Source: Clostridia bacterium (lineage in GTDB: Bacteria; Bacillota; Clostridia; Christensenellales; CAG-138). Taken from it: a stretch of DNA of 64,000 bases. The stretch covers positions 25,778-89,777 of the forward strand of contig JAFXZJ010000055.1 of the NCBI GenBank assembly GCA_017541305.1. Reading direction: 5' to 3'. The notes beneath the pieces are model-generated. The model worked only from the letters and a program-made list of their open reading frames with translations, was not told the origin of the DNA and searched no databases. Numbering within the stretch: position 1 is the first letter of the stretch; each line of letters opens with the position of its first letter. Shown here in pieces: positions 19,994 through 55,009 of the stretch. The translations under genes were made by a program, and so were the position numbers.

Positions 19994-20235
19994 AGCGCGT
20001 CGGAGCCCTGCCCCTCGGGTATTACCGCAAAGGGGTTAAGAAGCCTCCTCGGCGGCGCGTGGGCGCGTCGGGGCCTTGCCCCTCGGGTATTACCGCAAAG
20101 GGGGAGACAAGCCCCTCGGCGGCGCGTGAGCGCGTCGGAGCCTTGCCCCTCGGGTATTACCGCAAAGGGGACTACAAGCCCGCAGGAAGCGGCCTCGGCG
20201 CCTTGCCCCTCGTGTATTACGCAAAAGGGGTACAG
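19994..20235. repeat. Tandem array of four 59-70-bp repeats
   Basis: Unit GCGCGTCGGAGCCYTGCCCCTCGGGTATTACCGCAAAGGGG starts at 19994, 20064, 20130 and 20189 (last copy degenerate). Confidence 0.7.
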
Positions 20236-20451
20236 AACCCCCCTCCGCGTGCTTTTGTTGTTATGCGAGCGCTCATCTATATGTGTTCTGAAACGGCATT
20301 TGACTACATTTTCTAAAAATATATTTTATTTCGGAGCATTATTGCAACTGTTTGCCCTTCTTTTTTTCATTCGTCGCCGTGCAGGCGACCTATTCGGGCC
20401 GTTCATGTGCTATAATGTAGGCGCAAAACAGATCAGGGAGGTGTTTTAGAT

Positions 20452-28170: not shown

Positions 28171-28199
28171 TATTTCATCACCACTCCTTCTTAAACACT

Positions 28200-28670
28200 A
28201 AATTGATTTTGTTACAAGAGCCGGACCGCTGTTTTATTATTCGCGCGACCGCCTAACGGTGGATAAGGCAAGGGCTTCACCCGCTTAAGATCAGCGCCTT
28301 CGGCGAGCCTTTCAAGATAGATGTATTTTTCGTTGTCACTAAGCTGCTTTCGTGATCTATCAATAACGTATTCCTTGTTATTTTTATAAAGACTGATTAT
28401 GAATTTGCAGCCGTATTTTCTTACTGTCTTTTCTGAATAAACGTGCGGATTGACGCCGGTGCACAGACGTTCCGCCCTTCCAAAGAAGTTTCAAGTCATT
28501 ATAAAATGGTCCTTCTCCTTCTTATCCCAGGGCACATCTCTGTGATAGGAATCGAGCAATTCATTCAATGCATTCAGCGTTCTGTCACGCCTTAACAGAA
28601 TCTTGTCGACAACGCATGTGATGACGCCAATAAGTATCGAAACAGCCGTCAGTATTTCTCCGATGAGCAT
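28200..28670 (-). pseudogene. Decayed paralog of the small membrane protein at 32955..33431
   Basis: The intact 59-codon N-terminal ORF 28491..28670 (MLIGEILTAVSILIGVITCVVDKILLRRDRTLNALNELLDSYHRD) aligns to MELIGTGIAALSLMLTTATFIWDKLLSRKQRTLETLNKLKDSYHRE. Downstream DNA still encodes ...YVIDRSRKQLSDNEKYIYLERLAEG in another frame (compare YLIDQRRKQFKDDEYYISIERLAEKF). Confidence 0.5.
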
Positions 28671-28687
28671 TGTATGCCTCCATCTAA

Positions 28688-30328
28688 TTATGTAATCAGA
28701 ATCGCGATTGTGATTGCAGCAATAATGACTGCCGCAACAATCAAGAGGACAATCCTCTCCCTCTTGTTTTTCTTCTTTGCATTTATCTCTTCTTCTTCTT
28801 TCTCAGCTTTCAGAGACTCGATCTTTTTTCGGCAGATCTCTATCTGATGCTCCGAATCCTTCCATCCGGGAATCGACTCAAATATCTTGATGGCTTTTTC
28901 ATAATCGTCAATATAATGACTACCCATTTTGCTGAAAGCCGCATTATAGAAAGAATCCATATATACAGCATTGGCTTTTTCTCGGCAGTCCGCAGCACGC
29001 TGTTCGGCATCCTTGAATCCGTTGATGCCAAGAAATGCTTTTTCGGCCTGCTTAAAATCATATTCGGACTTAGCGCAATTTGCGAGACCGTCAGCCTTGC
29101 GATAAAGTATGGCATTATTATACCCTATAAGCTCATCTTGCAGCTTTTTATCACCAAAACGGAGTGCTTTTTTGTAATTACTGAGTTGTTCAAAAGCATC
29201 TGTGCGGGAAACAAGATCGGCTCTTGTTGTGACCTTGAGTTCCGCCATAAGCTTAGCAACATATGCTTCCGCATTCTCAGGATCCTGATCCAGCACCTTT
29301 TCGGCGTATTCGTCCGCGCTCTGCCACTCGCCATCCTCCAGATACATGAAAGCGCGCTTCAAAAGCGGCGCTATGTTCGCACTGCCGCCAGTGACCACGG
29401 TGGTTTCCTTTACGACCGGCTTCGATTCGCCGTCACGGACGATCTTCTTGATTCCGCGGATAAGATCCTGCATGAAGCCAAGCTTACTCATATCCTGAGC
29501 CTGCAGATGGGAGAACTCGTCGGGCAGATCGTAGGGATCCATATCGCGGTAGGCGGGGATGAGCACCTTCTTGCCGCCGCTCTGCTTGACAAGCGAAAGG
29601 TAGCGGCTCCATTCGTTCTTTACCCACACCGCTTTGAAATGCTCCGGCTTGGTGCCGAGCACGACCATGACCTTTGCGCTGTTCAGCGCGGCGAAAATAT
29701 AGGGCTCGTAGGCCGTGCCGAGCTTATCCTCCAGTGTGATGCGCGAGAAGAAGACCTTGAAGCCCTCCTGCGTGAGCTGATGGTAGAGGTCGTTCGCCAG
29801 CACGGAATCCATCGTTCGCCTGCCGTTTGCATCCGTTTCCTTATAGCAAATGAAAACATCGAACGGCTCTTCCTTCTGCGATATGGCAAGGATGCCCTTT
29901 TGAATCTCATTTATGGCGTTTGCTTCCGCTTCATAGAGGGATCGCTGATACCCGTCAGCGTACCGCAGGGCGGATTTGTAGTTGTCGTCATCAAAAACGG
30001 AAGTGAATTGCGCGCGGTTGACCGTAGGCATACGTTTGCGTGTCGCAGGATCTTCCACGTATTCGATACCGTAGCGGCAGAGCACCAGCGACCAGTAAGC
30101 CTCCGCGTCCGTCGTGTCCTCGTTCAGTATCTGCTCGTAGATCCCCGCAGCCTTGTCGAACTCGTTGTTCCGGCGAAAATGGTTCGCGCGGTCGTATAGA
30201 TTTTCCTTACGCTCGGAGTCAAGCTTTGGCAAAGTCTGCTTAGAACCACAGTACTCGCACTCCGCAACGGTAGAGCCCTTGTCGATGATCAGGTCGCCCC
30301 CGCACATTTTGCATTTGAAAATGGACAT
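28688..30328 (-). CDS. Zinc-ribbon-TPR-TIR-domain protein with C-terminal TM anchor (TIR paralog 1)
   Basis: N-terminal MSIFKCKMCGG...CEYCGS. TIR block FDVFICYKETD...FFSRITLEDKLG...AALNSAKVMVVLGT...AVWVKNEWSRYL. TPR-like helices. C-terminal IVLLIVAAVIIAAITIAILIT. Confidence 0.8.
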   Translation of the reverse strand: MSIFKCKMCGGDLIIDKGSTVAECEYCGSKQTLPKLDSERKENLYDRANHFRRNNEFDKAAGIYEQILNEDTTDAEAYWSLVLCRYGIEYVEDPATRKRMPTVNRAQFTSVFDDDNYKSALRYADGYQRSLYEAEANAINEIQKGILAISQKEEPFDVFICYKETDANGRRTMDSVLANDLYHQLTQEGFKVFFSRITLEDKLGTAYEPYIFAALNSAKVMVVLGTKPEHFKAVWVKNEWSRYLSLVKQSGGKKVLIPAYRDMDPYDLPDEFSHLQAQDMSKLGFMQDLIRGIKKIVRDGESKPVVKETTVVTGGSANIAPLLKRAFMYLEDGEWQSADEYAEKVLDQDPENAEAYVAKLMAELKVTTRADLVSRTDAFEQLSNYKKALRFGDKKLQDELIGYNNAILYRKADGLANCAKSEYDFKQAEKAFLGINGFKDAEQRAADCREKANAVYMDSFYNAAFSKMGSHYIDDYEKAIKIFESIPGWKDSEHQIEICRKKIESLKAEKEEEEINAKKKNKRERIVLLIVAAVIIAAITIAILIT

Positions 30329-30348
30329 ATTGTTCCCTCCGGATATAG

Positions 30349-31050
30349 TTATTTATTCAGTTTGCAAAGCCTGTTCCTCTCCGAAAGAACTGACTGGGCT
30401 TTTTTGCATAGCGGCATTATGCTCTCGTTATCGCCATCGACTATTGCGCGCTGAATCTCCTGCATCAGGGCGTTGAGCTCGCCTTCGGCTTCGGCTGTCG
30501 CGTCATTTGAAACGGGATCGCAGTAGTTGAGCGCGTCTGCAAGCTTTTTCAGTTCCGCCCTTGCCTCTTCGTTTTCGCAGCCGGCCGCAAGGCTGTTGCC
30601 GATAGAGCGAAGCTCCCGGATCTTCTCGACGTCCTTTTTCAATACCGTATCCTGCCGCTCGATCTCATCTCTTGTGGCGTCGGTCGCAACGGCCCCGAGG
30701 ATTGCTACGGCAAAGAGAAGAATGAACACAAGCACGAAAGGCCACGCGGGAATGCCGGGAATGGCAGCAAGGCCCATTGCAAGAAAGCTCAGTATCAGCT
30801 GTACCGTCGCATAGATACTACCAACGCGAGCGATCGGAAAACCGTAAAAGCGGCTCTTTGCCGAATCGCCCTTGCCGAAAGCAACTGCAAATATGAGCAG
30901 ACTTGTAAGTATCGCGAGAAGGCCAAACCCGTAGCCCACCCAGAACACGGAGTTGTGTTTGAAAGGAAGCACGAATGCAAGAACGTTATAAACGACCAGG
31001 ATTACTGCGACCGTGATGATCGCGCGTATCATTTTTTTGCTGAGCTTCAT
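30349..31050 (-). CDS. 4-TM membrane protein with cytoplasmic coiled-coil tail
   Basis: Hydrophobic N-terminal half and coiled-coil C-terminal half. Gene is adjacent to (1-bp gap) the SPFH gene. Confidence 0.55.
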   Translation of the reverse strand: MKLSKKMIRAIITVAVILVVYNVLAFVLPFKHNSVFWVGYGFGLLAILTSLLIFAVAFGKGDSAKSRFYGFPIARVGSIYATVQLILSFLAMGLAAIPGIPAWPFVLVFILLFAVAILGAVATDATRDEIERQDTVLKKDVEKIRELRSIGNSLAAGCENEEARAELKKLADALNYCDPVSNDATAEAEGELNALMQEIQRAIVDGDNESIMPLCKKAQSVLSERNRLCKLNK

Positions 31051-31051
31051 A

Positions 31052-32950
31052 TTATTCTCCCTTCTTAAAGCCGCAGTCCGGGCAGAACTTGCTTGTTATG
31101 TCCTTTGCTCCGCATTCCGGGCAGATCCAACCCTTTTTTTCCTCAGGCTTCTTCGCGCCGCAATTCGGGCAGAATTTTGATTTGATTCCATTCGTTCCGC
31201 ATTCGGGGCATGTCCAGCCTGCCGTCTCATCTGGCTTTTTTGCTCCGCATTCGGGACAGAATTTGCTTGATATGTTTGTTGTTCCGCATACAGGGCACGT
31301 CCAACCGACTTTTGGTTCCGGCTTCTTTGCCCCGCAGTCCGGGCAGAACTTGCTTGTTATGTTTCGGGTCCCGCATTCGGGGCACGTCCAGCCTGCAGGA
31401 ACAGGCGTGCCTTCTGCGACAGAGGTCTGCTCCTGGGCATTCGGGTTTATCCCATTCATTATATTGCCTATCTGCGGAGCCATTGCGCTCATTGCAGCCA
31501 TACCCACGCCAAGACCCATGATATCACCCATCACACTGCCTCCGCCGACGCTGACTCCAGAGCCCATGTTGCCGATGCCCTCGGCGTATGCCTTCTGAAC
31601 TTCCGTCTGCAGGACGTCCTTCTGGTTGTATCCCTTTGCGGCCATGATCTCCGCCTCGGTCAAGCCATGCACCCGCGCGGCCTGTGCTTCCGCCTGTGCC
31701 TCAATGATCTTGCGCTCAGCCTCACGCCTTGCGACCTCTGTCTTTGTCGTTTCCCCCTGCAGGACTGCTTCGCGCCTTGCCGCCTCGACCTGCGCCTTTG
31801 CCTGCTCCTCAACGGTCTTCACAGTCGCCTGTGCCTGAACCACGCGGGTCTGCAGAACGATGGTATGCAGTTCACGGATGCGCTTGAAATTCGGATCGTC
31901 CTCGGGAAGGACGATATGCGTAACATAAAGCTGCGGAACGGTGAGGCCGTACTCCTCAAAGCCCTCTGTTACCTTTTGACGGAGCGAATCGGAGATGATC
32001 TCCAGCTTTTCATCCACCTCGAGTATGTCGATATCATTCGTCTTTATTACCGTTGGTAGATTGGTTTTGACTGCGCTTGCTATCATCGGACGGAAGGAGG
32101 CCTGCAGGCTCTTTGTGAATCCGGCACTGTCGCGATCTTCCCAAGCGACGCCGCTCGTCGTTCCCACAAGCTTAATAAGCAGTTTCCTCGAATCGCCAAC
32201 GGCAATGTTCATTTCTCCAGATGCGCCGATCTCAAGAGGCGTCCCGGTCAGAGGATCGATGAAACGCACCTTATCAGGCGTACCCCATTTGATGGCCATC
32301 TGAACGGTCTTGTTTATGAAATAGATCTCGCTGTGGAAGGTCCTCTCCGCGTTTGTGGGAAGCTTATACAGCTTTTCGAGCATCGGCAGCTGCTGTGTCT
32401 CAAGCGTGTAACGGCCCGGCCCGAACAGGTCGAGCGCCTGTCCGTCACGGAAGAATACCGCTTCCTGACTTTCATGGACGATGAGCTGGGAGCCGTAGTT
32501 GAAGTCCTCAACGGGATGCTTCCAGATGAAGGTAGAGTTGTCGCCCTCGTACTTGATTATGGATGCAAGGCCCTCCGCCTTGATGCGCTCCTTCTCAACG
32601 CGCTCGGCGACGTCGTTGTCATGGTCGCACACGGGGCAGACGTAGTGCGAAGCGGCCTTCGAGGTCTGGAGCCGGACGCCGCACTGCGCGCAGGAGAACT
32701 CGACAGTCTTGTCCTGCTCTGCCATCGTATTGATGGGCTCATGGCAGACGGGGCATTTAGCGCCGGCACCCTTGGATTGATCAAATACCACGTTGTTCCC
32801 GCAGTGCGGGCAAACGCGGCTTGCCAGCTTGTCCGTGCGGACATCAATAGTATACCCGCACGCACAGCTGATCTTTTTACTTGCGAAGAACCCAGCCTTC
32901 GCCTCAGCATAGCGCCCGCAGTTGGGGCATTCGATTACGAATTTTGCCAT
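31052..32950 (-). CDS. Multi-zinc-ribbon SPFH/Band-7 (PF13421-like) protein with four tandem C-terminal zinc-ribbon repeats
   Basis: Three N-terminal CxxC pairs. SPFH core IIKYEGDNSTFIWKHPVEDFNYGSQLIVHESQEAVFFRDGQALDLFGPGRYTL. Coiled coil. Four repeats of GWTCPECGT..I.SKFCPDCGAKKPE. Confidence 0.75.
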   Translation of the reverse strand: MAKFVIECPNCGRYAEAKAGFFASKKISCACGYTIDVRTDKLASRVCPHCGNNVVFDQSKGAGAKCPVCHEPINTMAEQDKTVEFSCAQCGVRLQTSKAASHYVCPVCDHDNDVAERVEKERIKAEGLASIIKYEGDNSTFIWKHPVEDFNYGSQLIVHESQEAVFFRDGQALDLFGPGRYTLETQQLPMLEKLYKLPTNAERTFHSEIYFINKTVQMAIKWGTPDKVRFIDPLTGTPLEIGASGEMNIAVGDSRKLLIKLVGTTSGVAWEDRDSAGFTKSLQASFRPMIASAVKTNLPTVIKTNDIDILEVDEKLEIISDSLRQKVTEGFEEYGLTVPQLYVTHIVLPEDDPNFKRIRELHTIVLQTRVVQAQATVKTVEEQAKAQVEAARREAVLQGETTKTEVARREAERKIIEAQAEAQAARVHGLTEAEIMAAKGYNQKDVLQTEVQKAYAEGIGNMGSGVSVGGGSVMGDIMGLGVGMAAMSAMAPQIGNIMNGINPNAQEQTSVAEGTPVPAGWTCPECGTRNITSKFCPDCGAKKPEPKVGWTCPVCGTTNISSKFCPECGAKKPDETAGWTCPECGTNGIKSKFCPNCGAKKPEEKKGWICPECGAKDITSKFCPDCGFKKGE

Positions 32951-32954
32951 GGTT

Positions 32955-33431
32955 TTATTCCTCCGTTTGAATATTGTCTGTTGAATTTGTTTTTTCCGAC
33001 GGGCTGTTCGTCTCCTGCCCGTTTGCGGCGCCGCGCGATCTGCGGAATTTCTCGGCGAGCCTTTCTATGCTGATATAGTATTCGTCATCCTTGAACTGCT
33101 TCCTTCTCTGGTCGATCAGATACACCTTGAAATCATCGTATAATCTGATTATCAACCTGCTTCCGCTGCTCTTCACGGTGCGGTAGGAATAGTACCCCGA
33201 AAGAACGCCCGAGCAGAAGCTCTCAAGCTTCCCGAAGTAATTGACGCAGTTTCTGTAATAATCCGAATTATCCTTCCTGTTCCTTCCGGCGATCTCTCTG
33301 TGATAGCTGTCCTTGAGCTTGTTGAGCGTTTCAAGCGTCCTCTGCTTTCTCGAAAGCAGCTTATCCCAGATAAACGTTGCCGTCGTCAGCATGAGCGATA
33401 AAGCGGCTATACCGGTTCCGATCAGTTCCAT
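32955..33431 (-). CDS. Small N-terminally membrane-anchored protein (158 aa)
   Basis: One N-terminal TM helix and a charged C-terminus. Paralogous decayed copy at 28200..28670. Confidence 0.55.
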   Translation of the reverse strand: MELIGTGIAALSLMLTTATFIWDKLLSRKQRTLETLNKLKDSYHREIAGRNRKDNSDYYRNCVNYFGKLESFCSGVLSGYYSYRTVKSSGSRLIIRLYDDFKVYLIDQRRKQFKDDEYYISIERLAEKFRRSRGAANGQETNSPSEKTNSTDNIQTEE

Positions 33432-33472
33432 TTTTCCTCCTCTGTTTACAAGGCTTACAGCGTATTCGGCGG

Positions 33473-36145
33473 TCAGTTTTGCATTGCCCTTATCCGCGAA
33501 TCGAGCTGCGCTATCTCCGCCTCGAGCTCCCTTCTGCGCTTGCCGGTAAAGAGGCCCTTGAGGTTTTTGAGCTCCGCTTCGGCTTCGGCACGGCGCTTTA
33601 AAAGGGTCTCGAGCAGAAGCCTGCGCTCGTTTTCCGCACGCTCCGCGGCTTCCCGGCGCTCACGCTCTGCGCGCTCAGCGGCTTCCCGGCGTTCACGCTC
33701 TCTCTGCTCATCTTTGGACTTTTGCTCCTGTTCAAGAGTATCGATACCGTCGAAAAGCTTCCAGTCCTTTGTATTGCATTGTCCATAATCAAACCCATTA
33801 CTTTTCCGAGTCTCAATGTACTTAGTCGCAACAACGGTGCCGTCTGATTTCAATCCGACTGTTCGTCCTGGCGCCGCAAATACCGCGACAATATCCGTCC
33901 AGTTCTTGACGTTGCACTGACCGTTAGTATTACTTCCTGCAGCTACTACAGTTCCATCCTCCTTAAGGCCTACAATATGATAATCGGAATCATCCTTGTT
34001 AGCCCATCCGACATCACTGGATCCGGCAATCGATAGGATGCCTTTCCATTTTTTGACCTGTGAGAGGAACCCGAAGTCGTCGGAACACACAACACGTCCG
34101 TCCTCTTTTAAGCCGATGATGGACGAATACGGTTCGTCGTAGAAAACGGAAACAGCGATGATGTCCGCCCATTTTGAAACCCGGTTTTTAAGCTTGTTGA
34201 GACCTTTGACAATATCTTCATATTCTTCATCATCCTCATCGTACTCGATGGAGTGATACGGAGAGACGACGACCTTCTTATCGTTCTTTATACCGACGAT
34301 CAGATCATAGGTGCTTGCAACTGAAACAATATTATTCCAACTCGCAAACGCTTCTGTATCGTCTGGATCGGTAGAAACGACCGTTCCATCCTTTCTGATA
34401 CCGAATACATCAGATTCGGAGGCAAACACATCTGTAATATCACGCCAGGCGACGGTCTTAGTATCCCCGGCGCAAACAGCCGAACCGTCGTTTCTCAGTC
34501 CGATAAGGAATCTATCTCCGGCAGCTAACTTGACTATGCCTCGCCATTTATCAATGTCAAAACTCTTCTTCGAGGCGAAAGCAACCGTACCGTCGCCTCT
34601 TAATCCGGCGGTAAAACTGTTACCGGCAGCTATCGAAACGATGTCTGACCAATCGCCGACTTCGCATTGGCCATCATAGGAAGAATACAATTCGCCGCGC
34701 AGACGGGAATAATCGTTTTGGACATGTTCTTTGTATTTTGTGGCAAATACTTTACCTTGGATATTCAATGCGACCGTATGGTTTTTTCCACAGCAGACCA
34801 GGTTTTGAGCCGAAGCATACTTGGCTCTCAAATCGATAAGGCGCTGCTTCCCGGCAGCAATGCTTTTTTCTTCCTGCTCGATTCTTGCCTTCTCCCTATC
34901 TTTCTGTTCCTTTTCGATTCTTGAGAACCATTCGGCTGTCTCCTTGTCTGCGAAGCGTTTAGCGCGTTCGTATTCCTTTCCCTGTTGTATCAAGGAAGAA
35001 AAATTCTGCTCAAAATCTTCCTTAGACCTCACGTTTGCCTCTGCAAGCATAATGCCCAGATAGGCTCTGCTGTTCTCCGGGTCGATATCGAGCACCTTGT
35101 TGAAATATCCCTCGGCTTGCCCGAACTCGCCCTCCTCAAGGAAGAGCTGCGCCCGCTTGAGCAGCGAACCCACGCTCGGACCCGCGTCCGTCTGCTGTAT
35201 CACCTGCTGAATTATCCGCTGCTCCGACTGCGCCTTTTCGGGCTCGTCCTTTCCGATCACCTTTTTGATGCCGCGGATCAGGTCCTGTATAAAGCCGATC
35301 TTTGCCATATCATAGCTTTGCAGAACGGAGAGCTGCTCGGGAAGATCGTATGGATCCATGCCCTTGTAGCATGGCAAAAGGAGCTTTGAGCGATCCTTGC
35401 GCATCAGCGCGAGAAAACGGCTCCACTCGTTCTTGACCCAGACGGCGTTGAAATATTCCGGCTTCGAGCCGATCGCGATCATAACCTTTGCGGAATTGAG
35501 CGCGGCGAAGATATAGGGCTCGTACTCGGAGCCTACCTTATCCTCGAGCGTTATCCTCGAGAAGAACACGCGGTAGCCTTCGCTTGTGAGCTGATAGTAG
35601 ATCTCCTGCGCGTCGATGCTGTCCTTTGTACGCTCCTTGGTGTTGTCGTCGGTCTCCTTATAGCAGATGAAAACGTCGAAAGGCTCCTCGTTCTGCGAGG
35701 TGGCGAGTATGCCCTTCTGTACCTCCGCGATCTTCGCTCCGTCCTTCTGATACTGGCGGCGGGTGATGCCATCGGAGTTTTCGAGCGCGGCGATGTAATC
35801 CACGTCCTCAAGGAAGCTGTCAAAGCTCGCCCTGTGGCAGGTGGGGATGTATTCATACGTGTTCGGATCCTCAACGTACTCTATACCGAACCTGCACAGC
35901 GCGCAGCACCAGTGCGCCTCGGCGTCGGCGTCGTCCTCACGAACGATGTTCTCGTAGATCGCAAGCGCCTTATCGAATTCGCCCGCGCGCCTGAAATGAT
36001 TTCCCCTGTTGAACAGCGCCGCCCGCTGCTCGTCCGATACCTTAGGCAGAGTCATCGTCGACCCGCAGTATTCGCAGGTCCCAAAGGTCTTTTCTTCATT
36101 GAGGACTATGTCCCCACCGCACATTTTGCATTTGATAATCGCCAT
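33473..36145 (-). CDS. Zinc-ribbon-TPR-TIR protein with RCC1-like beta-propeller repeats and C-terminal ERERREAAERA coiled-coil (TIR paralog 2)
   Basis: N-terminal MAIIKCKMCGG...CEYCGS. TIR block FDVFICYKETDDNTKERT...AVWVKNEWSRFL. Seven to eight RCC1-like repeats such as GLKEDGTVVAAGSNTNGQCNVKNW. Duplicated ERERREAAERAE segment. Confidence 0.8.
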   Translation of the reverse strand: MAIIKCKMCGGDIVLNEEKTFGTCEYCGSTMTLPKVSDEQRAALFNRGNHFRRAGEFDKALAIYENIVREDDADAEAHWCCALCRFGIEYVEDPNTYEYIPTCHRASFDSFLEDVDYIAALENSDGITRRQYQKDGAKIAEVQKGILATSQNEEPFDVFICYKETDDNTKERTKDSIDAQEIYYQLTSEGYRVFFSRITLEDKVGSEYEPYIFAALNSAKVMIAIGSKPEYFNAVWVKNEWSRFLALMRKDRSKLLLPCYKGMDPYDLPEQLSVLQSYDMAKIGFIQDLIRGIKKVIGKDEPEKAQSEQRIIQQVIQQTDAGPSVGSLLKRAQLFLEEGEFGQAEGYFNKVLDIDPENSRAYLGIMLAEANVRSKEDFEQNFSSLIQQGKEYERAKRFADKETAEWFSRIEKEQKDREKARIEQEEKSIAAGKQRLIDLRAKYASAQNLVCCGKNHTVALNIQGKVFATKYKEHVQNDYSRLRGELYSSYDGQCEVGDWSDIVSIAAGNSFTAGLRGDGTVAFASKKSFDIDKWRGIVKLAAGDRFLIGLRNDGSAVCAGDTKTVAWRDITDVFASESDVFGIRKDGTVVSTDPDDTEAFASWNNIVSVASTYDLIVGIKNDKKVVVSPYHSIEYDEDDEEYEDIVKGLNKLKNRVSKWADIIAVSVFYDEPYSSIIGLKEDGRVVCSDDFGFLSQVKKWKGILSIAGSSDVGWANKDDSDYHIVGLKEDGTVVAAGSNTNGQCNVKNWTDIVAVFAAPGRTVGLKSDGTVVATKYIETRKSNGFDYGQCNTKDWKLFDGIDTLEQEQKSKDEQRERERREAAERAERERREAAERAENERRLLLETLLKRRAEAEAELKNLKGLFTGKRRRELEAEIAQLDSRIRAMQN

Positions 36146-36188
36146 ACTATTCTCCTATAGCAAATTAAGCATTTTAACACTGACTTTT

Positions 36189-36614
36189 CTAAACTCTACG
36201 ATCACGTTCTAAGTCTATTGCTATCTGCTCTGTCTCCTGAGTGGAACACTCAAAAACATACAGTTTATGTAACAGCTCCGAATCTGAAGGATAGGATGCA
36301 CCTCGTCTGTTAATTTCGATTTGTATTTCAGACTTAAGAGATTGGTTCTTAAAGAAAGTATCGTATAATTCGACTCTCTCTTTTGTCATTTGATCTTTGC
36401 TGTTAATGTACTCCTGCATTAGATCATGAAGAAATAACGGGTCATAAGCTTTAATGTTAGCAATTGTATCATCCGCCCTTTTAAGAGTATTATTCACATA
36501 ATTGGTGAACCTCTGAATGTTTTCAATGCCAAAGAACACAATCTTGCAATCATCACAAAGAAAAGCTTCGTTCTTCCATTCACACGGTTTATTGCAACTT
36601 GGGCAGTTATACAT
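36189..36614 (-). CDS. Small zinc-ribbon protein (CPSCN...CDDC), 141 aa
   Basis: Low-GC ORF between TIR paralogs 2 and 3. Confidence 0.45.
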   Translation of the reverse strand: MYNCPSCNKPCEWKNEAFLCDDCKIVFFGIENIQRFTNYVNNTLKRADDTIANIKAYDPLFLHDLMQEYINSKDQMTKERVELYDTFFKNQSLKSEIQIEINRRGASYPSDSELLHKLYVFECSTQETEQIAIDLERDRRV

Positions 36615-36760
36615 AATCTTTCCTCCTAAACGTATTATACTAATTAAGTTGTGTAACGCAAGTAGTAGCTTGAATCAGCATACCTATTATTGCCCTTTTT
36701 CTAACAAGCGGAAGCACAATCCTTCTTTACCAAACAGACGTTTTCATAAGCACATGCATT

Positions 36761-39196
36761 CTAATCTCCAACCTTATTATCTAACCTGACCCACATTGCA
36801 GGACGAATAGCAGCATAACCATAACCGTTATTGCCCGAAACTGAGCAATGAGGGCTAATCCAACCTTCATCCGTGACTTTTGTTGCTTTTGTTGGATCTT
36901 CACCCGGTGTTCTCAGCCACCATCCGATCCTTGCATCGTTAGCTTTTCCGCCAACCCATTTGGCCTTGCCATTTACGATTTTATATGGAGAAACATATGA
37001 GTTATAAGCTTCTGCCTCCGATATTGTATAATATGTTGGGGCACATAATCTTTCAGTTTCTGACCGATAATACTTCTCAACATCCAAGACGCTAAGAAGA
37101 AACACCTTGTCGGTTGTGCCTTTACCTGGGGTAGAACTATACTTAGGGTTTTTATCAGCAGAAACCTTAGATGCTACAATACGGCTACGTTCTTCCGAAG
37201 TAAATGCGGTGATATAGAAAGAATTATTCAGCCATTTTCTCAATGAGCAAGTTTCCCATGTAACGCTCGTGACACAAAAGTTATACTGCTTATAGTCTAA
37301 TGCATATTTGCTGATGAGTAGCATACAATCATTCTCTACTGCGTACACCTGCCACTCGATAGGTTCGGAAGGGCTCCCTTTTTTTTGAATGTATCTACCA
37401 AACATATACGAAATAGGCGGAGCTTCTGGAAAAAGCTCTTTCACTGCAAGAGCAACATCTCGCCTTTTTTTATAAATATCAAGTGCTTCATTATAGCTAT
37501 ATGCGCTTGTAGTATTGTTGTGATTTGTCTCAGATAGAGTTTCAAGTTTTTTCGCAAACGCGGTTGCTTTTTCAAGATCATGCTCGATTTCTTCTCTTGA
37601 TGCATAGCCTTGAAGTTTTGTTTCTAACTGGTTAAGTCGTGAACGAACGGAATCCTTCTTCCTCTCATAATCAGAAAGCAGATAATCTATTTGTTTCTTC
37701 TCTTTACCAGCAAAAATGCCGAGTTTTGATTTCTGCGCTGTAAGCTCTGTCTGCTTAGATGAGTAGTCGCGAATCTCATTATTCATCAGCCCAATCTGTT
37801 CCTTAATATCATCAAAACAGATTAGTATTCCTTTAATGAATTCTATTCTTTTATTCGCAGACGAAATGCGTTCCTTGAGAGTAGGCGCACTAGGATTTGC
37901 TCTCATGAGTGCATCAGCAACTAGCTCAACTATGTTGTTCTCTTTAAACGCCTCTTCATCTTTAATGCGTTCATTTATCACATCAATATAGTTGCTTAGT
38001 TCTGATACAATGCTTGGTTCACCAAAACGTGCTATTTTTAAATAATTATAGTTTCCTTCAAACGGTCTCTTGCATCCTGCAAGTTCTGTTTGATGGGATA
38101 CTCTCAACTCGGCCATCAGTTTCACGAGATAAGCTCTAGCATTCTCCGGTTCATAGTCAAGAACCTTTTCAGCATACTCGTCTGCGTTCTTCCATTCCCC
38201 GTCTTCGAGATACAGAAACGCACGGTTCAAAAGCGCAGAAGTATTTGCACCAGGCGAACTTTGGACAAACGAATGCACAGGAGCTATTTCTTTCGTATCT
38301 TCCTTTGGCAGCAGTTTCTTTATTGCACGAATAAGATCCTGATCTGCGCCGACCTTGCCCATATCCTGAGATTGGAGTTTCGAAAACTCTTTGGGCATAT
38401 CATATGCGTCGATATCCTTGAAGCAAGGAATGAGCCGTTTCGTCTTGTCCTTTTCCATGAGCTTGAGGAAGCGGCTCCATTCGTTCTTGACCCAGACCGC
38501 ATTGAAATACTCATAATCAGTTCCAAATACAAGCATGATCTTTGCGCTGTTGAGCGCAGCAAAAACATAAGGCTCATACTCCTGCCCGAGCTTGTCCTCC
38601 AGCGTTATCCTTGAGAAAAACACACGATAGCCGGCATCGTTCAGCTTATCGTAGATATCTTGCGCAAGCACTGAGTCTATGGTGCGCTGCCCGACCTCTG
38701 CCGTTTCCTTATAGCAGATGAAAATATCATAGGGCTCTTCTTTACCCGAAACTTCAATTATGCTTTTACGCAGTTCCTCTATCCGCTTGGCTTCCTCCCG
38801 ATAGACCTTACGGGAAAGAGCGTCGGAATTCTCCATGACTTGTTCAAAATCCTTGTCGTCCATCACGCTGTCAAAGCTCGAGCGGTGACAGGTCGGGATC
38901 TTTTTTCCTGTGGCAGGATCATCCACATACTCTATACCGTAGCGGCAAAGCACGAGACCCCAGTAGGCCTCTGCTTCCTCGGGAAAGTCCGCAACGACGG
39001 ACTCAAAAACACCGGCGGCCTTGTCGAACTCGCACGCCGCACGCAGCCTGTTCGCCCTCGCAAACAGCGTCATTTTTTTGTCATTATCAGCTGTGGGAAC
39101 TGTCTGAACGCTGCCGCAGTATTCGCATTCCGCTACTGTTGAGCCTTCCGTCAGGATCAGATCGCCTCCGCACATTTTGCATTTGATAATCGCCAT
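36761..39196 (-). CDS. Zinc-ribbon-TPR-TIR protein with long coiled-coil and C-terminal DUF6273-like domain (TIR paralog 3)
   Basis: Same N-terminus and TIR core as paralogs 1 and 2. C-terminal motifs IEWQVYAVEN...LRKWLNNSFY...KVFLLSVLDVEKYY...GWWLRTPGEDP...AIRPAMWVRLD. Confidence 0.8.
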   Translation of the reverse strand: MAIIKCKMCGGDLILTEGSTVAECEYCGSVQTVPTADNDKKMTLFARANRLRAACEFDKAAGVFESVVADFPEEAEAYWGLVLCRYGIEYVDDPATGKKIPTCHRSSFDSVMDDKDFEQVMENSDALSRKVYREEAKRIEELRKSIIEVSGKEEPYDIFICYKETAEVGQRTIDSVLAQDIYDKLNDAGYRVFFSRITLEDKLGQEYEPYVFAALNSAKIMLVFGTDYEYFNAVWVKNEWSRFLKLMEKDKTKRLIPCFKDIDAYDMPKEFSKLQSQDMGKVGADQDLIRAIKKLLPKEDTKEIAPVHSFVQSSPGANTSALLNRAFLYLEDGEWKNADEYAEKVLDYEPENARAYLVKLMAELRVSHQTELAGCKRPFEGNYNYLKIARFGEPSIVSELSNYIDVINERIKDEEAFKENNIVELVADALMRANPSAPTLKERISSANKRIEFIKGILICFDDIKEQIGLMNNEIRDYSSKQTELTAQKSKLGIFAGKEKKQIDYLLSDYERKKDSVRSRLNQLETKLQGYASREEIEHDLEKATAFAKKLETLSETNHNNTTSAYSYNEALDIYKKRRDVALAVKELFPEAPPISYMFGRYIQKKGSPSEPIEWQVYAVENDCMLLISKYALDYKQYNFCVTSVTWETCSLRKWLNNSFYITAFTSEERSRIVASKVSADKNPKYSSTPGKGTTDKVFLLSVLDVEKYYRSETERLCAPTYYTISEAEAYNSYVSPYKIVNGKAKWVGGKANDARIGWWLRTPGEDPTKATKVTDEGWISPHCSVSGNNGYGYAAIRPAMWVRLDNKVGD

Positions 39197-39217
39197 ATGA
39201 GCCTCCTATATGAACGT

Positions 39218-39409
39218 TTATTTTTCCGTTATCTCCATATGACGGAGCGCGAACTCCAACCCTAACAAAATGATCTCGTTTCGCGTGCGCCCGGTATCCT
39301 GCGCGACCTTATCGACGTCGTGCAGCATATCCTTTGGCATACGAACCGAGATCACCTGTGATTCCTCCGTGTATCTTTTCGGAGTTATTATCAGCTTCTG
39401 CTCTGTCAT
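39218..39409 (-). CDS. Ribbon-helix-helix (CopG/antitoxin-like) DNA-binding protein, 64 aa
   Basis: MTEQKLIITPKRYTEESQVISVRMPKDMLHDVDKVAQDTGRTRNEIILLGLEF. GGAGGT RBS precedes the ATG. Confidence 0.55.
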   Translation of the reverse strand: MTEQKLIITPKRYTEESQVISVRMPKDMLHDVDKVAQDTGRTRNEIILLGLEFALRHMEITEK

Positions 39410-39821: not shown

Positions 39822-40166
39822 TCATTGCTTCTCAATAAAATCCGATAGTATCTTCAGCAGTTCGGGGACGTCGTTTTTGACGGTGTCATAAATGATGGTG
39901 AGATCAACACTGCCGTATTCGTGGACGATCCTGTTGCGCAGACCCTTGACCGCCCTCCACGGGATCTCCGTGTTCTGTGCTTTGAAATCCTCGGAAAGCT
40001 TGTCCGCGCTTTCCGAGACCTGAATAAGCCTGAACATGGCGGAGTCGGCCAAAACTTCGTCTTTTTCAAGCTCCTCTTTCGTAATACGCGCGGTGTGAGC
40101 GACGATGAAGCCAAGATCGTTAATGATCCGATTCACATAGTAGCGGTCATTTTTGACATTATCCAT
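39822..40166 (-). CDS. hepT: HepT-like (DUF86) RNase toxin
   Basis: RNRIVHEY motif (Rx4HxY). Overlaps the upstream mntA by 8 nt. Confidence 0.8.
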   Translation of the reverse strand: MDNVKNDRYYVNRIINDLGFIVAHTARITKEELEKDEVLADSAMFRLIQVSESADKLSEDFKAQNTEIPWRAVKGLRNRIVHEYGSVDLTIIYDTVKNDVPELLKILSDFIEKQ

Positions 40167-40629
40167 AGATCTTTATACCATCCTTCAATACTTCATTTAC
40201 AAGATCGGGGTTTTCGGCAAGCTGCGAATAAGAAAGCACATCCACCTTCTTCTTCAAGCCTTCTCGAAGAGCTTCCACGAGATCGTAGAACCGGATCCCG
40301 GAAACCTTTGTCGAGAGAAGCAGATCGACGTCGCTCTCTTCACCGGCTTTGCCTTTCGCATAAGAGCCGAAAAGATAGCAGTATTCGACTTCATAAGCCG
40401 GAAGTATCTCGGCGCATTTTTGAGTGATGGCCTCAATACTCAATACTCCATGGCTTTCGTCCATATACCCGTACTGCTCGAGCTTTTGGAAAATGTAAAG
40501 GTACTTGAAGGATGTGCGCTTCCTCTCATCGTTCTCGTAGTTTTGATATGTTCGCAAGGGCATTCCGAGGAAAGCAGCGCTTTCCGCCTGCGTCAACCCC
40601 TTGCTTTTTCTTAGTTCTTTTAGTGTCAT
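40159..40629 (-). CDS. mntA: MntA-like nucleotidyltransferase antitoxin with N-terminal XRE HTH
   Basis: HTH LKELRKSKGLTQAESAAFLG. NTase motif LFGSYAKGKAGEESDVDLLL. AGGTGA RBS before ATG at 40629. Confidence 0.8.
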   Translation of the reverse strand: MTLKELRKSKGLTQAESAAFLGMPLRTYQNYENDERKRTSFKYLYIFQKLEQYGYMDESHGVLSIEAITQKCAEILPAYEVEYCYLFGSYAKGKAGEESDVDLLLSTKVSGIRFYDLVEALREGLKKKVDVLSYSQLAENPDLVNEVLKDGIKIYG

Positions 40630-40906
40630 AGCATTCACCTCGGTATGATTATAGCATACTTGCGTCCGCTTCGCAAGCAACAATACGCAACAATTGCGCA
40701 TTATATGCAACAATTACACGCAATTGCTGCGTTTAATGTTGCATATTCGTGCGCAAAGGCTGCGTATATCGGCTGATTTAGCCTCACAGATTAGTTTTGC
40801 ATTATGCAGCCAAACGTATCCCCGTTGCTCCGCAAGAGCTCACATTTTTCATTCCCGTATCGCCATTTGGAATCAATTGCTAGCTAACGAAAGGATTCCC
40901 CGAGTT

Positions 40907-41046
40907 GTTTGGTTGCCCCATAGATTTACACTACTCTCAAACCTTCCCGGCGTACACCGCGACGTCCGCCGGTTTGAGTACCCCATAGATTTACACTACT
41001 CTCAAACTGATGCTGATAGTTATAGTATCGCCGAACTGTTTGAGTA
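40907..41046 (+). CRISPR. CRISPR-like remnant: two 36-nt repeats, 29- and 30-nt spacers, truncated third repeat; type II-like repeat termini
   Basis: GTTTGGTTGCCCCATAGATTTACACTACTCTCAAAC at 40907-40942 and GTTTGAGTACCCCATAGATTTACACTACTCTCAAAC at 40972-41007. Termini GTTTGAG/CTCAAAC are reverse-complementary. A partial repeat GTTTGAGTA at 41038 runs into the recombinase fragment. No cas genes in the window. Confidence 0.45.
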
Positions 41047-41234
41047 TCAAAGAGCTGACGCCCGAGCTTGTGAATACTCTCATCCGCCGAATCGAAATCC
41101 ATGAACCACAGCTAATCGACGGTCAGCGAACTGTAAACGTTGACATTTTCTTCACCGGCATCGGAATGTTCTCAGTACCCGATTCGGAAGAGCTGTCCGC
41201 TTTGATCGCCGAATTTTCCAAACATTCAGCATAA
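41044..41234 (+). pseudogene. 3' fragment of a large serine recombinase gene (last ~62 codons) plus conserved downstream hairpin
   Basis: [20 protein letters not shown]...[27 protein letters not shown] is about 85% identical to the C-terminus of 53342..55009. The next 60 bp (hairpin GGTGCAGGC..GCCTGCACC plus ACCCTCAAAAG) match 55010-55070. Confidence 0.65.
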
Positions 41235-41437
41235 AAAAACGGTGCAGGCCTTGAAAGCCTGCACCACCCCTCAAAAGGGATCCTTATACGGAACGTACCG
41301 TAAGACGGTTTTTCTCATTCTCTGTTCCTCCGGGGCGGATAGGTCTAATTTGACAGCGACGTTATTATACTATGCCCCAACCGCTGCTGTCAACAGGAAG
41401 AGAAAGCGCCGACCGTGTCAAGTTCTTCTGGGAGAAA

Positions 41438-42877
41438 TCAAACGACGGAATCGAGAGGCATGAGCTTCGCGTAAGCCTTGAGGATGGCGGTAGTGCCGGT
41501 GAGCTTGCCGTAGGACAGGCCAGCGGGAGCATGCTCGTTCTCGAATACGCTCCAATCGTGATATCCGCCGAAAGCCTCGTTGATCTGCTTTTCGGCGTAT
41601 TTGCTGTATATCTCAAGCCCGTTTTTAAGGGCATTGTGATCCTTAGTGCGTTCCTTTCGGCTCCTTGAAACGCGGATGTGATCCGGGGTGACCTTGCCGC
41701 CGTTTTCGGTGAAGATGCGGAGCATTGCCATCTTGCCAAGACCCTCCCTTGTCCATGCGAGAGGATTCCTTGAAAGGCGCTCCGAAAGCAGATGACTGAC
41801 GAGGGGTTCTGTGCAGCTTCCGGGATGATCGCCGGTAAGGCGTTCTACTATCGAATCCCAGTTATTTTGGAAGTAGTTGACAAGCTCGGAGAGCGCTTTC
41901 TCCCCCTTCTCGTCCTGCTTCTCGCCTATCGAAGCACAGAAGCGGACGAATGAATCGAAGTCATTCTCTCTTACAGCCTTCTTGATAACTCCGGCATAGG
42001 AGGAGGCTCCCTTGAGCATGAACAGCTTTTTGAAGTATTTCTCCAAATGGAAGCCATCCATCACGAATACGGCGTTCGGCATCAGCGTTCCGAGATTCGT
42101 GATCCAGTTCCCGCCGTCGGCGTGGATATAAACGTTCTTTACTTTGTCCATGTCATATCGCTCGTATATGGCGGCAGTAACGTTCTCAATAAAAGCTCCG
42201 TTATCCATCCCGAAGCCCTGAAAATGCACCGGGTTTATCGTTTTGTGCCTCTTTGGGTCCGAGGTATCCATACCCTCGGTAACGGTAACAAGAGGCACGA
42301 AAGCGCTTTTCCTCGGACGCAGATGAACGTGATCCTCATCGGCAAATACGTGAAGCTCGGAGGGAGTGTGCTTCGCTCTCTCCATTGCCGTTACAGGCGC
42401 TTTCATGGACAGAAGCTTGTTGTTTACAGTCTGACGGCTGACAAGACCTCCGGCAACATTTGCAGACTTCTGCATGGACATGGATGCGGCATACTGCACG
42501 AGCTCAGCGCAGAGCTCCTTTGACAGCCTCTCGTTCGGCTCTATCCCGATAAGGTGATCTACAAGATAGATGTTCCTTCCGTCTTTAAAGGAGAAATACG
42601 TCCGCTTGAAACGAAGCTCTCCCAATGCGGTCGTAAACACACGGGGAACATTCCGTTCTTTCACAGTCAGCCCGTCGAGCTTTCTCTCCTTCTTTGCGGC
42701 AAGAACAGCGTTATCTATTTCGCCTATAGCGGCGGATACAATCTCCAACGTGCCGGACTTCACGACCGAAGATAGCTTCTCAACGATCTTTGCCAGGTCA
42801 GACAGACCGACTTTTTCGATCGTTTTTAAAATTTCCTCTACCAATCCACAGGCTGTTTGTGTTATAATGTCTTTCAC
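41438..42877 (-). CDS. DDE transposase-like protein (ISLre2/UPF0236-family-like), 479 aa
   Basis: Family assignment is from memory. Acidic residues appear in IHADGGNWI...VFVMDGFHLEKY contexts. No clear terminal inverted repeats found by eye. Confidence 0.5.
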   Translation of the reverse strand: MKDIITQTACGLVEEILKTIEKVGLSDLAKIVEKLSSVVKSGTLEIVSAAIGEIDNAVLAAKKERKLDGLTVKERNVPRVFTTALGELRFKRTYFSFKDGRNIYLVDHLIGIEPNERLSKELCAELVQYAASMSMQKSANVAGGLVSRQTVNNKLLSMKAPVTAMERAKHTPSELHVFADEDHVHLRPRKSAFVPLVTVTEGMDTSDPKRHKTINPVHFQGFGMDNGAFIENVTAAIYERYDMDKVKNVYIHADGGNWITNLGTLMPNAVFVMDGFHLEKYFKKLFMLKGASSYAGVIKKAVRENDFDSFVRFCASIGEKQDEKGEKALSELVNYFQNNWDSIVERLTGDHPGSCTEPLVSHLLSERLSRNPLAWTREGLGKMAMLRIFTENGGKVTPDHIRVSRSRKERTKDHNALKNGLEIYSKYAEKQINEAFGGYHDWSVFENEHAPAGLSYGKLTGTTAILKAYAKLMPLDSVV

Positions 42878-51860: not shown

Positions 51861-51903
51861 TCCGCACAGCGAGAGAGAGAATGATGATCAAACGGAGGTA
51901 TAA

Positions 51904-53084: not shown

Positions 53085-55009
<1,925 letters not shown>

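What the first reader, a model, noticed from the sequence alone, without database searches (positions are those of the whole stretch)
33473..36145. TIR paralog 2 carries an RCC1-like beta-propeller and an internally duplicated ERERREAAERAE coiled-coil
- About 7-8 degenerate repeats of the form h-h-G-L-K/R-x-D-G-T-V-V-a-x-G...GQCNV..W follow the TIR domain. This is the RCC1 blade signature.
- The C-terminus contains the verbatim DNA-level duplication EAAERAERERREAAERAE. This indicates recent slippage or expansion.
- A propeller is a plausible ligand or protein sensor for a TIR effector.
Basis: seen in the sequence. Interest (0 to 1): 0.55.

Follow-up and report, generated by a model that had tools for sequence, protein, structure and literature searches.

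The report
TIR protein with RCC1-like propeller
This gene encodes a cytoplasmic TIR-domain protein fused to a short-bladed RCC1/BLIP-II-type beta-propeller and a charged helical tail; it is an already-deposited but uncharacterised member of a large gut and rumen Clostridia family that sits in a conserved operon with a membrane-scaffold (SPFH) protein.

Summary
The ORF at 33473..36145 (-) is real. Its product is 890 aa, identical to GenBank MBR6109932.1.

**Propeller: confirmed.**
- Pfam RCC1_2 scores E 2.4e-19.
- The AlphaFold2 model has pLDDT 84 and shows eight three-stranded units.
- The best structural matches are BLIP-II, UVR8, ACR4 and RCC1.

**Duplication: partly confirmed.**
- ERERREAAERA x2 is exact at protein level only.
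- The DNA copies match at 29/33 positions, and all four differences are synonymous.
- The gene is base-for-base identical in four independent assemblies.
- It is therefore neither an artefact nor a visibly recent slippage.

**"Coiled-coil" label: doubtful.**
- The duplicated stretch has 28/42 charged and 2/42 hydrophobic residues. This fits an ER/K-type single helix used as a variable-length spacer.
- A conserved C-terminal helix-loop-helix (NLKGLFTGKRRR) follows it.

**TIR domain.** It keeps the catalytic-Glu position (E240).

**Context.**
- Three TIR paralogs share the N-terminal ~400 aa and differ in C-terminal modules.
- They lie in a conserved operon: RHH, TIR-X paralogs, SPFH/Zn-ribbon protein, 4-TM protein. 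This operon recurs across many Clostridia species.

**Function: inferred, not shown.** The likely role is a TIR enzyme with a propeller as binding module. No PADLOC model matches. A sample of flanks showed little sign of defence islands.

Interest is moderate.

The parts
33473..36145 (-). Whole ORF, 890 aa. Identical to GenBank MBR6109932.1, 'TIR domain-containing protein [Clostridia bacterium]'.
   Evidence: identical DNA in L001-L004
36050..36145 (-). N-terminal four-Cys zinc ribbon (aa 1-32). C6, C9, C24 and C27 are invariant or nearly so in the family.
   Evidence: alignment A2; three short strands in the AF2 model
35690..36034 (-). Helical TPR-like N-domain (aa 38-152) with a conserved CRFGIEYVEDP hairpin. 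AF2 confidence is low here.
   Evidence: weak Pfam TPR hits at aa 42-85
35246..35680 (-). TIR domain (aa 156-300).
   Evidence: Pfam TIR_2, E 5.2e-11, 43.5 bits against cut-off 28; profile matches to TLR and L6 TIR chains; alternating strand/helix pattern
35426..35428 (-). Codon of E240 in 'AVWVKNEWS', the putative catalytic glutamate of the TIR domain.
   Evidence: Aligns with the Glu of L6 'DSKWCLMEL'. The L6 catalytic Glu is E135 (PMC8295901). E240 is invariant in A2 and in all three window paralogs.
34946..35173 (-). TPR repeats (aa 325-400). This is the last part shared by the three paralogs.
   Evidence: Pfam TPR_1/TPR_2/TPR_19; paralog similarity ends at aa 385-413
34817..34945 (-). Long charged helix leading into the propeller (aa 401-443).
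   Evidence: AF2 H401-443, pLDDT 84-91
33758..34807 (-). RCC1/BLIP-II-type beta-propeller (aa 447-796). It has eight units of three strands each. Blade cores average only 30% identity to one another.
34169..34249 (-). Acidic helical insertion in unit 5 (aa 633-659, EYDEDDEEYEDIVKGLNKLKNRVSKW). It is absent from aligned homologues.
   Evidence: alignment A2 columns 1001-1030; AF2 helix 640-656
33620..33745 (-). ER/K-rich helical spacer (aa 801-842): 28/42 charged, 2/42 hydrophobic.
   Evidence: part of AF2 helix 801-861, pLDDT about 87-92; composition; variable length in homologues
33635..33700 (-). Tandem duplication of the 33-nt / 11-aa unit ERERREAAERA (aa 816-826 and 827-837). DNA identity is 29/33 with four synonymous differences.
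33479..33619 (-). Conserved C-terminal helix-loop-helix (aa 843-889). Hydrophobic residues follow a heptad pattern on both helices.
   Evidence: AF2 H801-861 and H868-889; heptad positions 874/878/881/885/888; motif conserved in 35 of the 120 top homologues
33545..33562 (-). Loop LKGLFT (aa 862-867) at the hairpin tip, followed by the basic run KRRR. K863, G864, F866 and G868 are invariant or nearly invariant.
39218..39409 (-). Context: 63-aa ribbon-helix-helix gene heading the cluster. It is 60-65% identical to the gene in the same position in two other genomes.
   Evidence: promoter-like site at 39496-39469
36761..39196 (-). Context: TIR paralog with a C-terminal DUF6273 domain (811 aa).
31052..32950 (-). 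Context: SPFH (Band_7_1) protein with several C-terminal zinc ribbons, YdjI-like in architecture.
   Evidence: found in 35 of 41 related loci of at least 15 kb; PMC11237479
30349..31050 (-). Context: 233-aa protein with four predicted transmembrane helices.
   Evidence: found in 31 of 41 related loci
28688..30328 (-). Context: TIR paralog with a C-terminal transmembrane anchor (546 aa).

Best explanation
**Architecture (shown or predicted here).** The gene encodes a soluble cytoplasmic multidomain protein. In order the domains are:
- a zinc ribbon;
- a helical domain;
- a TIR domain;
- TPR repeats;
- a long helix;
- an eight-unit, three-stranded-blade RCC1/BLIP-II-type propeller;
- an ER/K-rich helical spacer;
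- a conserved C-terminal helical hairpin.

**Context (shown).** It is one of three old paralogs. They share the N-terminal ~400 aa and carry different C-terminal modules: a propeller, DUF6273, or a membrane anchor. They sit in a conserved Clostridial operon of an RHH gene, one or more TIR-X genes, an SPFH/zinc-ribbon gene and a 4-TM gene.

**Mechanism (inferred).**
- The constant TIR half is an NAD+-cleaving output domain. Its catalytic-Glu position is conserved.
- The variable C-terminal module is the binding or sensing part that decides what each paralog responds to.
- Ligand binding would drive TIR self-association and NAD+ cleavage. The SPFH and 4-TM partners would supply a membrane-proximal scaffold or effector.

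**The duplication.** The ERERREAAERA repeat is an old, protein-preserving lengthening of a spacer helix. It sets the distance between the propeller and the C-terminal hairpin. More speculatively, the Leu-Phe plus KRRR tip of that hairpin could dock on the membrane or on a partner.
For: **Architecture.**
- Pfam TIR_2, TPR and RCC1_2 all score above their cut-offs.
- AF2 of aa 436-800 gives pLDDT 84 and pTM 0.79, with eight strand triplets.
- Foldseek's top hit is BLIP-II at E 8.5e-14.
- The full-length AF2 model shows helices 401-443, 801-861 and 868-889 with a break at the LKGLFT loop.

**TIR competence.** E240 aligns with the catalytic-Glu motif of L6. It is invariant in the family.

**Modularity.**
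- The paralogs are 52-55% identical over aa 1 to about 400 and unrelated beyond that.
- Family members carry RCC1-type, DUF6273 or other C-termini.

**Operon.**
- An SPFH homologue occurs in 35, the 4-TM protein in 31 and the RHH in 23 of 41 species-level loci of at least 15 kb. Up to five TIR paralogs occur per locus.
- The same gene order occurs with different flanks in three genomes.

**Spacer.**
- Linker length ranges from 37 to 116 aa, and other homologues have similar 7-11-aa tandem duplications.
- The duplicated stretch is 28/42 charged.
- The nearest homologue, P0002, has a single unit-like copy.
Against: - No enzymatic or phenotypic data exist.
- None of the eight cluster proteins matches a PADLOC model, apart from two chance-level hits at E 0.004-0.007.
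- Among 134 flanking ORFs sampled from 22 related loci, only about ten matched a PADLOC model. Only one, a Type I restriction enzyme, is clear-cut, so defence-island enrichment is not evident.
- Flanks in three inspected genomes are housekeeping genes.
- No TIR-half homologue was found in the phage or plasmid collections.
- AF2 confidence for the TIR half is low, pLDDT 38-78.
- This paralog's blades are unusually degenerate, averaging 30% core identity against 64-85% in relatives. That could mean relaxed constraint rather than a specialised sensor.
- The membrane-docking idea for the hairpin tip has no direct support.
Confidence: 0.55

Rival explanations
1. Membrane-stress or scaffolding system rather than immunity. 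The TIR-X paralogs would act as adaptors or regulators recruited to an SPFH (YdjI-like) membrane microdomain together with the 4-TM protein. The TIR domain would mediate protein-protein contacts, and the propeller would bind an envelope-related partner.
For: - Linkage to the SPFH/zinc-ribbon and 4-TM genes is tight.
- The SPFH-plus-C-terminal-zinc-ribbon architecture is the one described for the B. subtilis pspA-linked ydj operon (PMC11237479; PMC8581546).
- One paralog is membrane-anchored, and several cluster genes encode membrane proteins.
- The TIR half is very strongly conserved, 60-80% identity across Clostridial families.
- A sample of flanks shows little sign of defence islands.
Against: - The catalytic-Glu position is invariant. 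A pure adaptor would not need it.
- Multiple paralogs with swapped binding modules, and highly self-similar repeats in relatives, are features usually seen in conflict systems.
- No PspA-like gene was noticed in the cluster.
Confidence: 0.25
2. The ERERREAAERA duplication is a recent replication-slippage event or a contingency locus, and its copy number varies between strains.
For: - It is a tandem 33-nt repeat detected by TRF.
- Homologues show variable spacer lengths and similar small duplications.
Against: - The copies differ at 4 of 33 bases, all synonymous.
- The gene is identical in four assemblies from different samples.
- Its 90%-identity cluster has one member.
- Two copies of a 33-nt unit at 88% identity make a poor slippage substrate.
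Confidence: 0.07
3. This paralog is a decaying copy. Its propeller is degenerating under relaxed selection and no longer binds anything specific.
For: - Blade cores average 30% identity, against 64-85% in relatives.
- The GQC loops are lost in five of the eight units.
- There is a lineage-specific acidic insertion.
Against: - The ORF is an intact 890 aa, with no frameshift or stop.
- AF2 still folds it confidently.
- All four differences between the duplicated units are synonymous, which suggests purifying selection on the tail.
- Divergent blades are normal in mature propellers.
Confidence: 0.1

Closest known systems
BLIP-II (beta-lactamase inhibitory protein II, Streptomyces; PDB 1jtd, 3qhy)
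   Same: - The model here shows the same kind of compact three-stranded blade.
   Different: - From my own knowledge, BLIP-II is a secreted, stand-alone, seven-bladed inhibitor.
- Here there are eight units. They are embedded in a cytoplasmic TIR protein between two long helices.
- Global TM-scores are only 0.33-0.58.
Classical RCC1-like domains (RCC1, UVR8, HERC2 RLD) and the ACR4/CR4 'crinkly' propeller
   Same: - The Pfam RCC1_2 signature is present.
   Different: - From my own knowledge, classical RCC1 has seven four-stranded blades of 51-68 aa.
- Here the units are 33-56 aa with three strands each, and there are eight of them.
Bacterial and plant TIR NADases (Thoeris ThsB, TirS/TcpC, plant L6/RUN1, SARM1)
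   Same: - A TIR_2 domain is present.
- A Glu sits at the catalytic position.
   Different: - No ThsA-like partner was found and no PADLOC Thoeris model matched.
- The NCBIfam ThcB4 hit on a paralog scores 25 bits against a cut-off of 220.
- The N-terminal zinc ribbon and helical domain, and the C-terminal propeller and tail, are not features of those proteins.
- Activity is untested.
B. subtilis YdjI-type SPFH/zinc-ribbon proteins of the pspA-ydj operon (comparison for the neighbouring gene)
   Same: Band-7 plus C-terminal zinc-ribbon architecture, in Firmicutes.
   Different: - No PspA, YdjG or YdjH homologues were recognised here.
- The partners are TIR proteins, a 4-TM protein and an RHH gene.
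ER/K single alpha-helix (SAH) spacers (myosin VI/X type; named from my own knowledge)
   Same: - The stretch is very rich in E/R/K, with 16 i,i+4 opposite-charge pairs in 42 residues and almost no hydrophobic residues.
- It is predicted as one long helix.
- Its length varies between homologues.
   Different: Whether the helix is monomeric has not been shown. The last ~45 aa do have a heptad pattern and probably pack as a hairpin or coiled coil.

Membership tests
RCC1/BLIP-II beta-propeller superfamily | Tandem repeats matching the RCC1 repeat profile | tested here: met
   Pfam RCC1_2 E 2.4e-19, 69 bits against cut-off 22. WD40_RLD matches only partially, 37.9 bits against 150.
RCC1/BLIP-II beta-propeller superfamily | Propeller fold with RCC1-type structures as nearest neighbours | tested here: met
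   [not shown]
RCC1/BLIP-II beta-propeller superfamily | Seven blades | tested here: inconclusive
   [not shown]
Classical RCC1 repeat (Pfam RCC1, 51-68 aa, four strands) | Long four-stranded blades | tested here: not met
   Units are 33-56 aa with three strands each. There is no PF00415 hit for this protein.
TIR domain (catalytic type) | TIR profile match | tested here: met
   TIR_2, 43.5 bits against cut-off 28. Profile hits to TLR and L6 TIR chains.
TIR domain (catalytic type) | Glutamate at the catalytic position | tested here: met
   E240 aligns with the L6 WCLMEL Glu. The L6 catalytic Glu is E135 (PMC8295901). E240 is invariant in A2 and A3. The PDB-chain numbering offset was not independently verified.
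TIR domain (catalytic type) | NAD+ cleavage activity | not testable with these tools
   Needs a biochemical assay.
Thoeris and other catalogued defence systems (PADLOC-DB v2) | Match to a system's protein models and presence of its partner genes | tested here: not met
   None of the eight cluster proteins gave a meaningful hit. The ThcB4 NCBIfam hit on a paralog is far below its cut-off.
Coiled coil (as claimed for the duplicated stretch) | Heptad pattern of hydrophobic a/d positions | tested here: not met
   aa 801-842 have 2/42 hydrophobic residues. A heptad pattern appears only in aa 843-889.
ER/K single alpha-helix spacer | E/R/K-rich helix with i,i+4 salt-bridge pattern and a predicted continuous helix | tested here: met
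   28/42 charged residues and 16 i,i+4 opposite-charge pairs. AF2 helix 801-861 at pLDDT about 87-92. Monomeric state is not testable here.
Recent slippage or contingency repeat | Identical DNA copies and copy-number variation between strains | tested here: not met
   DNA identity is 29/33. There are no differences among four assemblies. The 90% cluster is a singleton.
DGR-diversified binding protein | Template/variable repeat pair with adenine-specific mismatches nearby | tested here: not met
   No such pair was found in the window or in 86 related loci.

The most novel reading that the evidence does not exclude
The operon of an RHH gene, one or more TIR-X genes, an SPFH/zinc-ribbon gene and a 4-TM gene may be a widespread, so far undescribed system of gut and rumen Clostridia. 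It could serve immunity or membrane surveillance. In it, arrays of TIR paralogs would form a small receptor repertoire feeding a membrane-associated effector or scaffold. The paralogs share a constant catalytic half and carry interchangeable binding modules: RCC1-type propellers with highly self-similar repeats, the DUF6273 domain (also found in phage receptor-binding proteins), or membrane anchors. The ER/K spacer and the Leu-Phe/KRRR hairpin would tether the propeller paralogs to that membrane complex.
Probability: 0.3. Interest if true: 0.7.

Novelty: new variant of a known kind. Interest (0 to 1): 0.4.

Why it matters
TIR domains are a shared currency of immunity in bacteria, plants and animals. 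How bacterial TIR enzymes are coupled to sensors is known for only a few systems.

- **Abundance.** This family is abundant. At least 131 matches were found among species-representative genomes of Oscillospiraceae, Ruminococcaceae, Lachnospiraceae and Christensenellales.
- **Absence from catalogues.** It is absent from the 2023 PADLOC catalogue. It is linked to an SPFH membrane-scaffold protein, a combination I found no paper on.
- **If the TIR half is an NADase gated by the C-terminal module.** The family would then be a natural series of one effector with many sensors in dominant gut anaerobes.
- **The specific finding.** It is modest: a correct domain call plus an old duplication in a spacer.

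Tried and rejected
- **DGR diversification.** DUF6273 on the neighbouring paralog is discussed in papers on DGR targets and phage receptor-binding proteins. No template/variable repeat with adenine-biased mismatches was found in the window or in 86 loci.
- **Paired-stalk idea.** I asked whether the helices before and after the propeller pair up. If so, their lengths should co-vary. They do not: Spearman 0.04, p 0.85, n 28.
- **Other contexts of the tail motif.** A profile of the C-terminal motif (A5) returned only 35-91-aa fragments from short contigs. The search was uninformative.
- **Defence-island test.** I ran 134 flanking ORFs from 22 loci against PADLOC. Only about ten matched any model, and only one match, a Type I restriction enzyme, is clear-cut. 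Enrichment is not evident. Only a sample of loci was scanned and there was no formal background.
- **Phage and plasmid collections.** Only RCC1-repeat matches turned up, none to the TIR half.
- **PDB sequence search with the whole protein.** Only designed TPR proteins and TOM70 matched.
- **afdb50 fold library.** It was not available.
- **A second zinc site in the H78/C80/C81/C84/C103/H104 cluster.** I dropped the idea because these residues are not conserved in the two paralogs.
Full report
**1. Observation**

The coordinates 33473..36145 (-) delimit an intact 890-aa ORF.

After a TIR domain there are eight degenerate repeats. They span aa 447-499, 500-534, 535-567, 568-603, 604-659, 660-700, 701-749 and 750-796.
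- Six carry a strict G-[LI]-[KR]-x-D-G core and two a degenerate one.
- GQC is retained in three places.
- Pfam scores the protein for RCC1_2 at E 2.4e-19, 69 bits against a cut-off of 22. It scores TIR_2 at 43.5 bits against 28. Several TPR families also match.

The C-terminal duplication is real. ERERREAAERA occurs twice in tandem, at aa 816-826 and 827-837 (window 33635..33700).
- It is exact only as protein. The DNA copies share 29 of 33 bases.
- All four differences are synonymous third positions.
- An 11/11 match is far beyond what this composition would give by chance. My own estimate is of the order of 1e-6.

The whole gene is base-for-base identical in four loci from different samples and assemblers. 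The repeats are therefore not an assembly artefact. The protein is GenBank MBR6109932.1, and its 90% cluster has one member. No copy-number variants are on record.

**2. The propeller**

AlphaFold2 on aa 436-800, with 51 homologues in the alignment, gave pLDDT 84.2 and pTM 0.79. The model has eight consecutive triplets of strands. The full-length model reproduces them.

Fold searches agree on the superfamily.
- These are mixed with eight-bladed WD40, BamB and cd1-type propellers. Those align over about 250-259 residues, against 222-242 for the seven-bladed RCC1 types.
- Foldseek ranks BLIP-II first (E 8.5e-14), then UVR8, RCC1 and ACR4. TM-scores are only moderate, 0.33-0.58. A blade-number mismatch would explain that.

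So the propeller call is right. The domain is the short-blade, three-stranded BLIP-II/crinkly kind, and this protein most likely has eight blades. I could not inspect coordinates, so ring closure is inferred.

**3. The family**

All 120 listed hits carry TIR_2 plus RCC1_2/WD40_RLD.
- Canonical members have seven 38-aa repeats with the consensus SAGxxHTVGLKxDGTVVAVGxNxxGQCDVSxWTDIVAV.
- Repeat counts are 7 in 80 of 120 and 8 in 21 of 120, and run up to 20.
- In relatives the blade cores are 64-85% identical to one another. In the window protein they average only 30%, with a maximum of 48%.
- The window protein also has a private acidic helical insertion in unit 5. This copy is therefore an unusually diverged propeller, not a recently expanded one.

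**4. The tail**

- AF2 predicts one long helix at aa 801-861, a break at LKGLFT (862-867), and a second helix at 868-889, all at pLDDT around 85-92.
- The motif L-Q-T-E-L-A-N-L-K-G-L-F-[TS]-G-K-R-R-K-E-I-E-A-R-L occurs in 35 of the 120 top homologues. K863, G864, F866 and G868 are invariant or nearly so.
- Between the last blade and this motif lies a spacer of 37-116 aa. Other homologues carry comparable small tandem duplications, for example REERERAKRAA/REERERANRAA.
- In the window protein the spacer (aa 801-842) has 28/42 charged and 2/42 hydrophobic residues, with 16 i,i+4 opposite-charge pairs. A heptad pattern appears only in aa 843-889.
- The duplicated stretch is therefore better described as an ER/K-type single-helix spacer than as a coiled coil.
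- The nearest homologue, P0002, has one unit-like copy, so the duplication is lineage-specific.

**5. The TIR half**

- The three window paralogs (890, 811 and 546 aa) are 52-55% identical over the first 385-413 aa and unrelated afterwards. Their C-termini are a propeller, DUF6273, and a transmembrane anchor.
- A profile of their TIR regions aligns FNAVWVKNEWS with ADSKWCLMELA of flax L6. The catalytic Glu of L6 is E135 (PMC8295901).
- E240 is invariant in the family. Catalytic competence is thus plausible but untested.
- AF2 confidence in this half is low, pLDDT 38-78.

**6. Context**

All cluster genes are on the minus strand with short gaps between them:
- RHH (39218..39409);
- TIR-DUF6273;
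- a 141-aa zinc-ribbon protein;
- TIR-propeller;
- DUF4760;
- SPFH with several zinc ribbons;
- a 4-TM protein;
- TIR-TM;
- a zinc-ribbon membrane protein.

A promoter-like site lies upstream of the RHH gene.

The same order, RHH then TIR-X then SPFH/zinc-ribbon then 4-TM, occurs with different flanks in a Faecousia MAG and an Oscillospiraceae MAG. The Faecousia MAG also has a TIR-less TPR-propeller-tail protein.

I analysed the best 79 of at least 131 matches in species-representative genomes. They come from Oscillospiraceae, Ruminococcaceae, Lachnospiraceae and Christensenellales, and include Neglectibacter timonensis. Of the 41 loci of at least 15 kb:
- 35 encode the SPFH homologue;
- 31 encode the 4-TM protein;
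- 23 encode the RHH;
- up to five TIR paralogs occur per locus.

The SPFH-plus-zinc-ribbon architecture is that of the B. subtilis pspA-linked ydj operon (PMC11237479; PMC8581546).

**7. Function**

- No cluster protein matches PADLOC.
- A sample of 134 flanking ORFs gave only about ten hits. Only one, a Type I restriction enzyme, was clear-cut.
- The TIR half is absent from the phage and plasmid collections.
- In the window the cluster abuts a HepT/MNT toxin-antitoxin pair and a UPF0236 gene.

I therefore commit to a TIR enzyme whose C-terminal module is the binding or sensing part. It would work in a membrane-proximal complex with the SPFH and 4-TM proteins. Immunity is the more likely role. 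A membrane-stress or adaptor role is the main rival. The architecture is shown. The operon conservation is shown. Everything about activity, ligand and output is inference.

**8. Novelty**

The protein and its domain hits are already in public databases. JGI even names relatives as RCC1/TPR proteins. I found no paper on TIR-RCC1 proteins of bacteria or on the TIR/SPFH operon. A Dictyostelium TIR protein with RCC1 repeats is mentioned in PMC13142454. I rate it a new variant of a known kind, of moderate interest.

Noticed in passing
window 27655..39409 (-); related loci L005-L086: There is a conserved operon: an RHH gene, one to five TIR-X paralogs, an SPFH/zinc-ribbon gene and a 4-TM gene. It recurs across many Clostridia species with different flanks. 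The SPFH gene is present in 35 of 41 loci of at least 15 kb. None of its proteins matches PADLOC.
   Followed up: partly
window 36761..39196 (-): A TIR paralog ends in DUF6273. Papers discuss this domain for phage receptor-binding proteins and DGR targets. No DGR-type repeat was found nearby. This paralog also has a GIFAGKEKKQI motif mid-protein that resembles the tail motif of the propeller paralog.
   Followed up: partly
L005 15723..17372 (+): A TIR-less protein (549 aa) has TPR repeats, a seven-repeat RCC1-type propeller and the same C-terminal tail. It lies downstream of the SPFH gene in a Faecousia MAG. The propeller plus tail therefore moves as a cassette without the TIR domain.
   Followed up: no
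window 17682..17831 and 20451..20600: A 150-nt direct repeat at 99% identity brackets a low-GC (0.43) 2.8-kb segment with one 393-aa ORF (18067..19248, -). The second copy is the 5' end of an ADP-ribosylglycohydrolase gene (20452..21249). This looks like an insertion that duplicated the gene start.
   Followed up: no
window 19979..20240: Four tandem units of about 67 nt, each containing a GC-rich hairpin-like core, lie just upstream of the ADP-ribosylglycohydrolase gene.
   Followed up: no
window 51794..53057 and 57197..58463: Inverted repeats of about 1.26 kb, 86-90% complementary, flank about 4.1 kb. This could be an invertible or composite element.
   Followed up: no
window 41045..41301 and 54820..55074: Direct repeats of about 260 nt, 85-88% identical, lie 13.8 kb apart. 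The first is next to the UPF0236 gene at 41438..42877.
   Followed up: no
window 39822..40713 (-): A HepT-like RNase and an HTH-MNT nucleotidyltransferase pair, a toxin-antitoxin type, lie immediately upstream of the TIR cluster.
   Followed up: no
window 31061..31393: Four tandem 87-nt units at 63-79% identity encode the repeated zinc ribbons at the C-terminus of the SPFH protein.
   Followed up: no
homologues P0002, P0016, P0029 and others: Relatives have propeller blades 64-85% identical to each other, with some pairs at 100%. This suggests concerted evolution or recent repeat turnover, in contrast with the window copy.
   Followed up: partly
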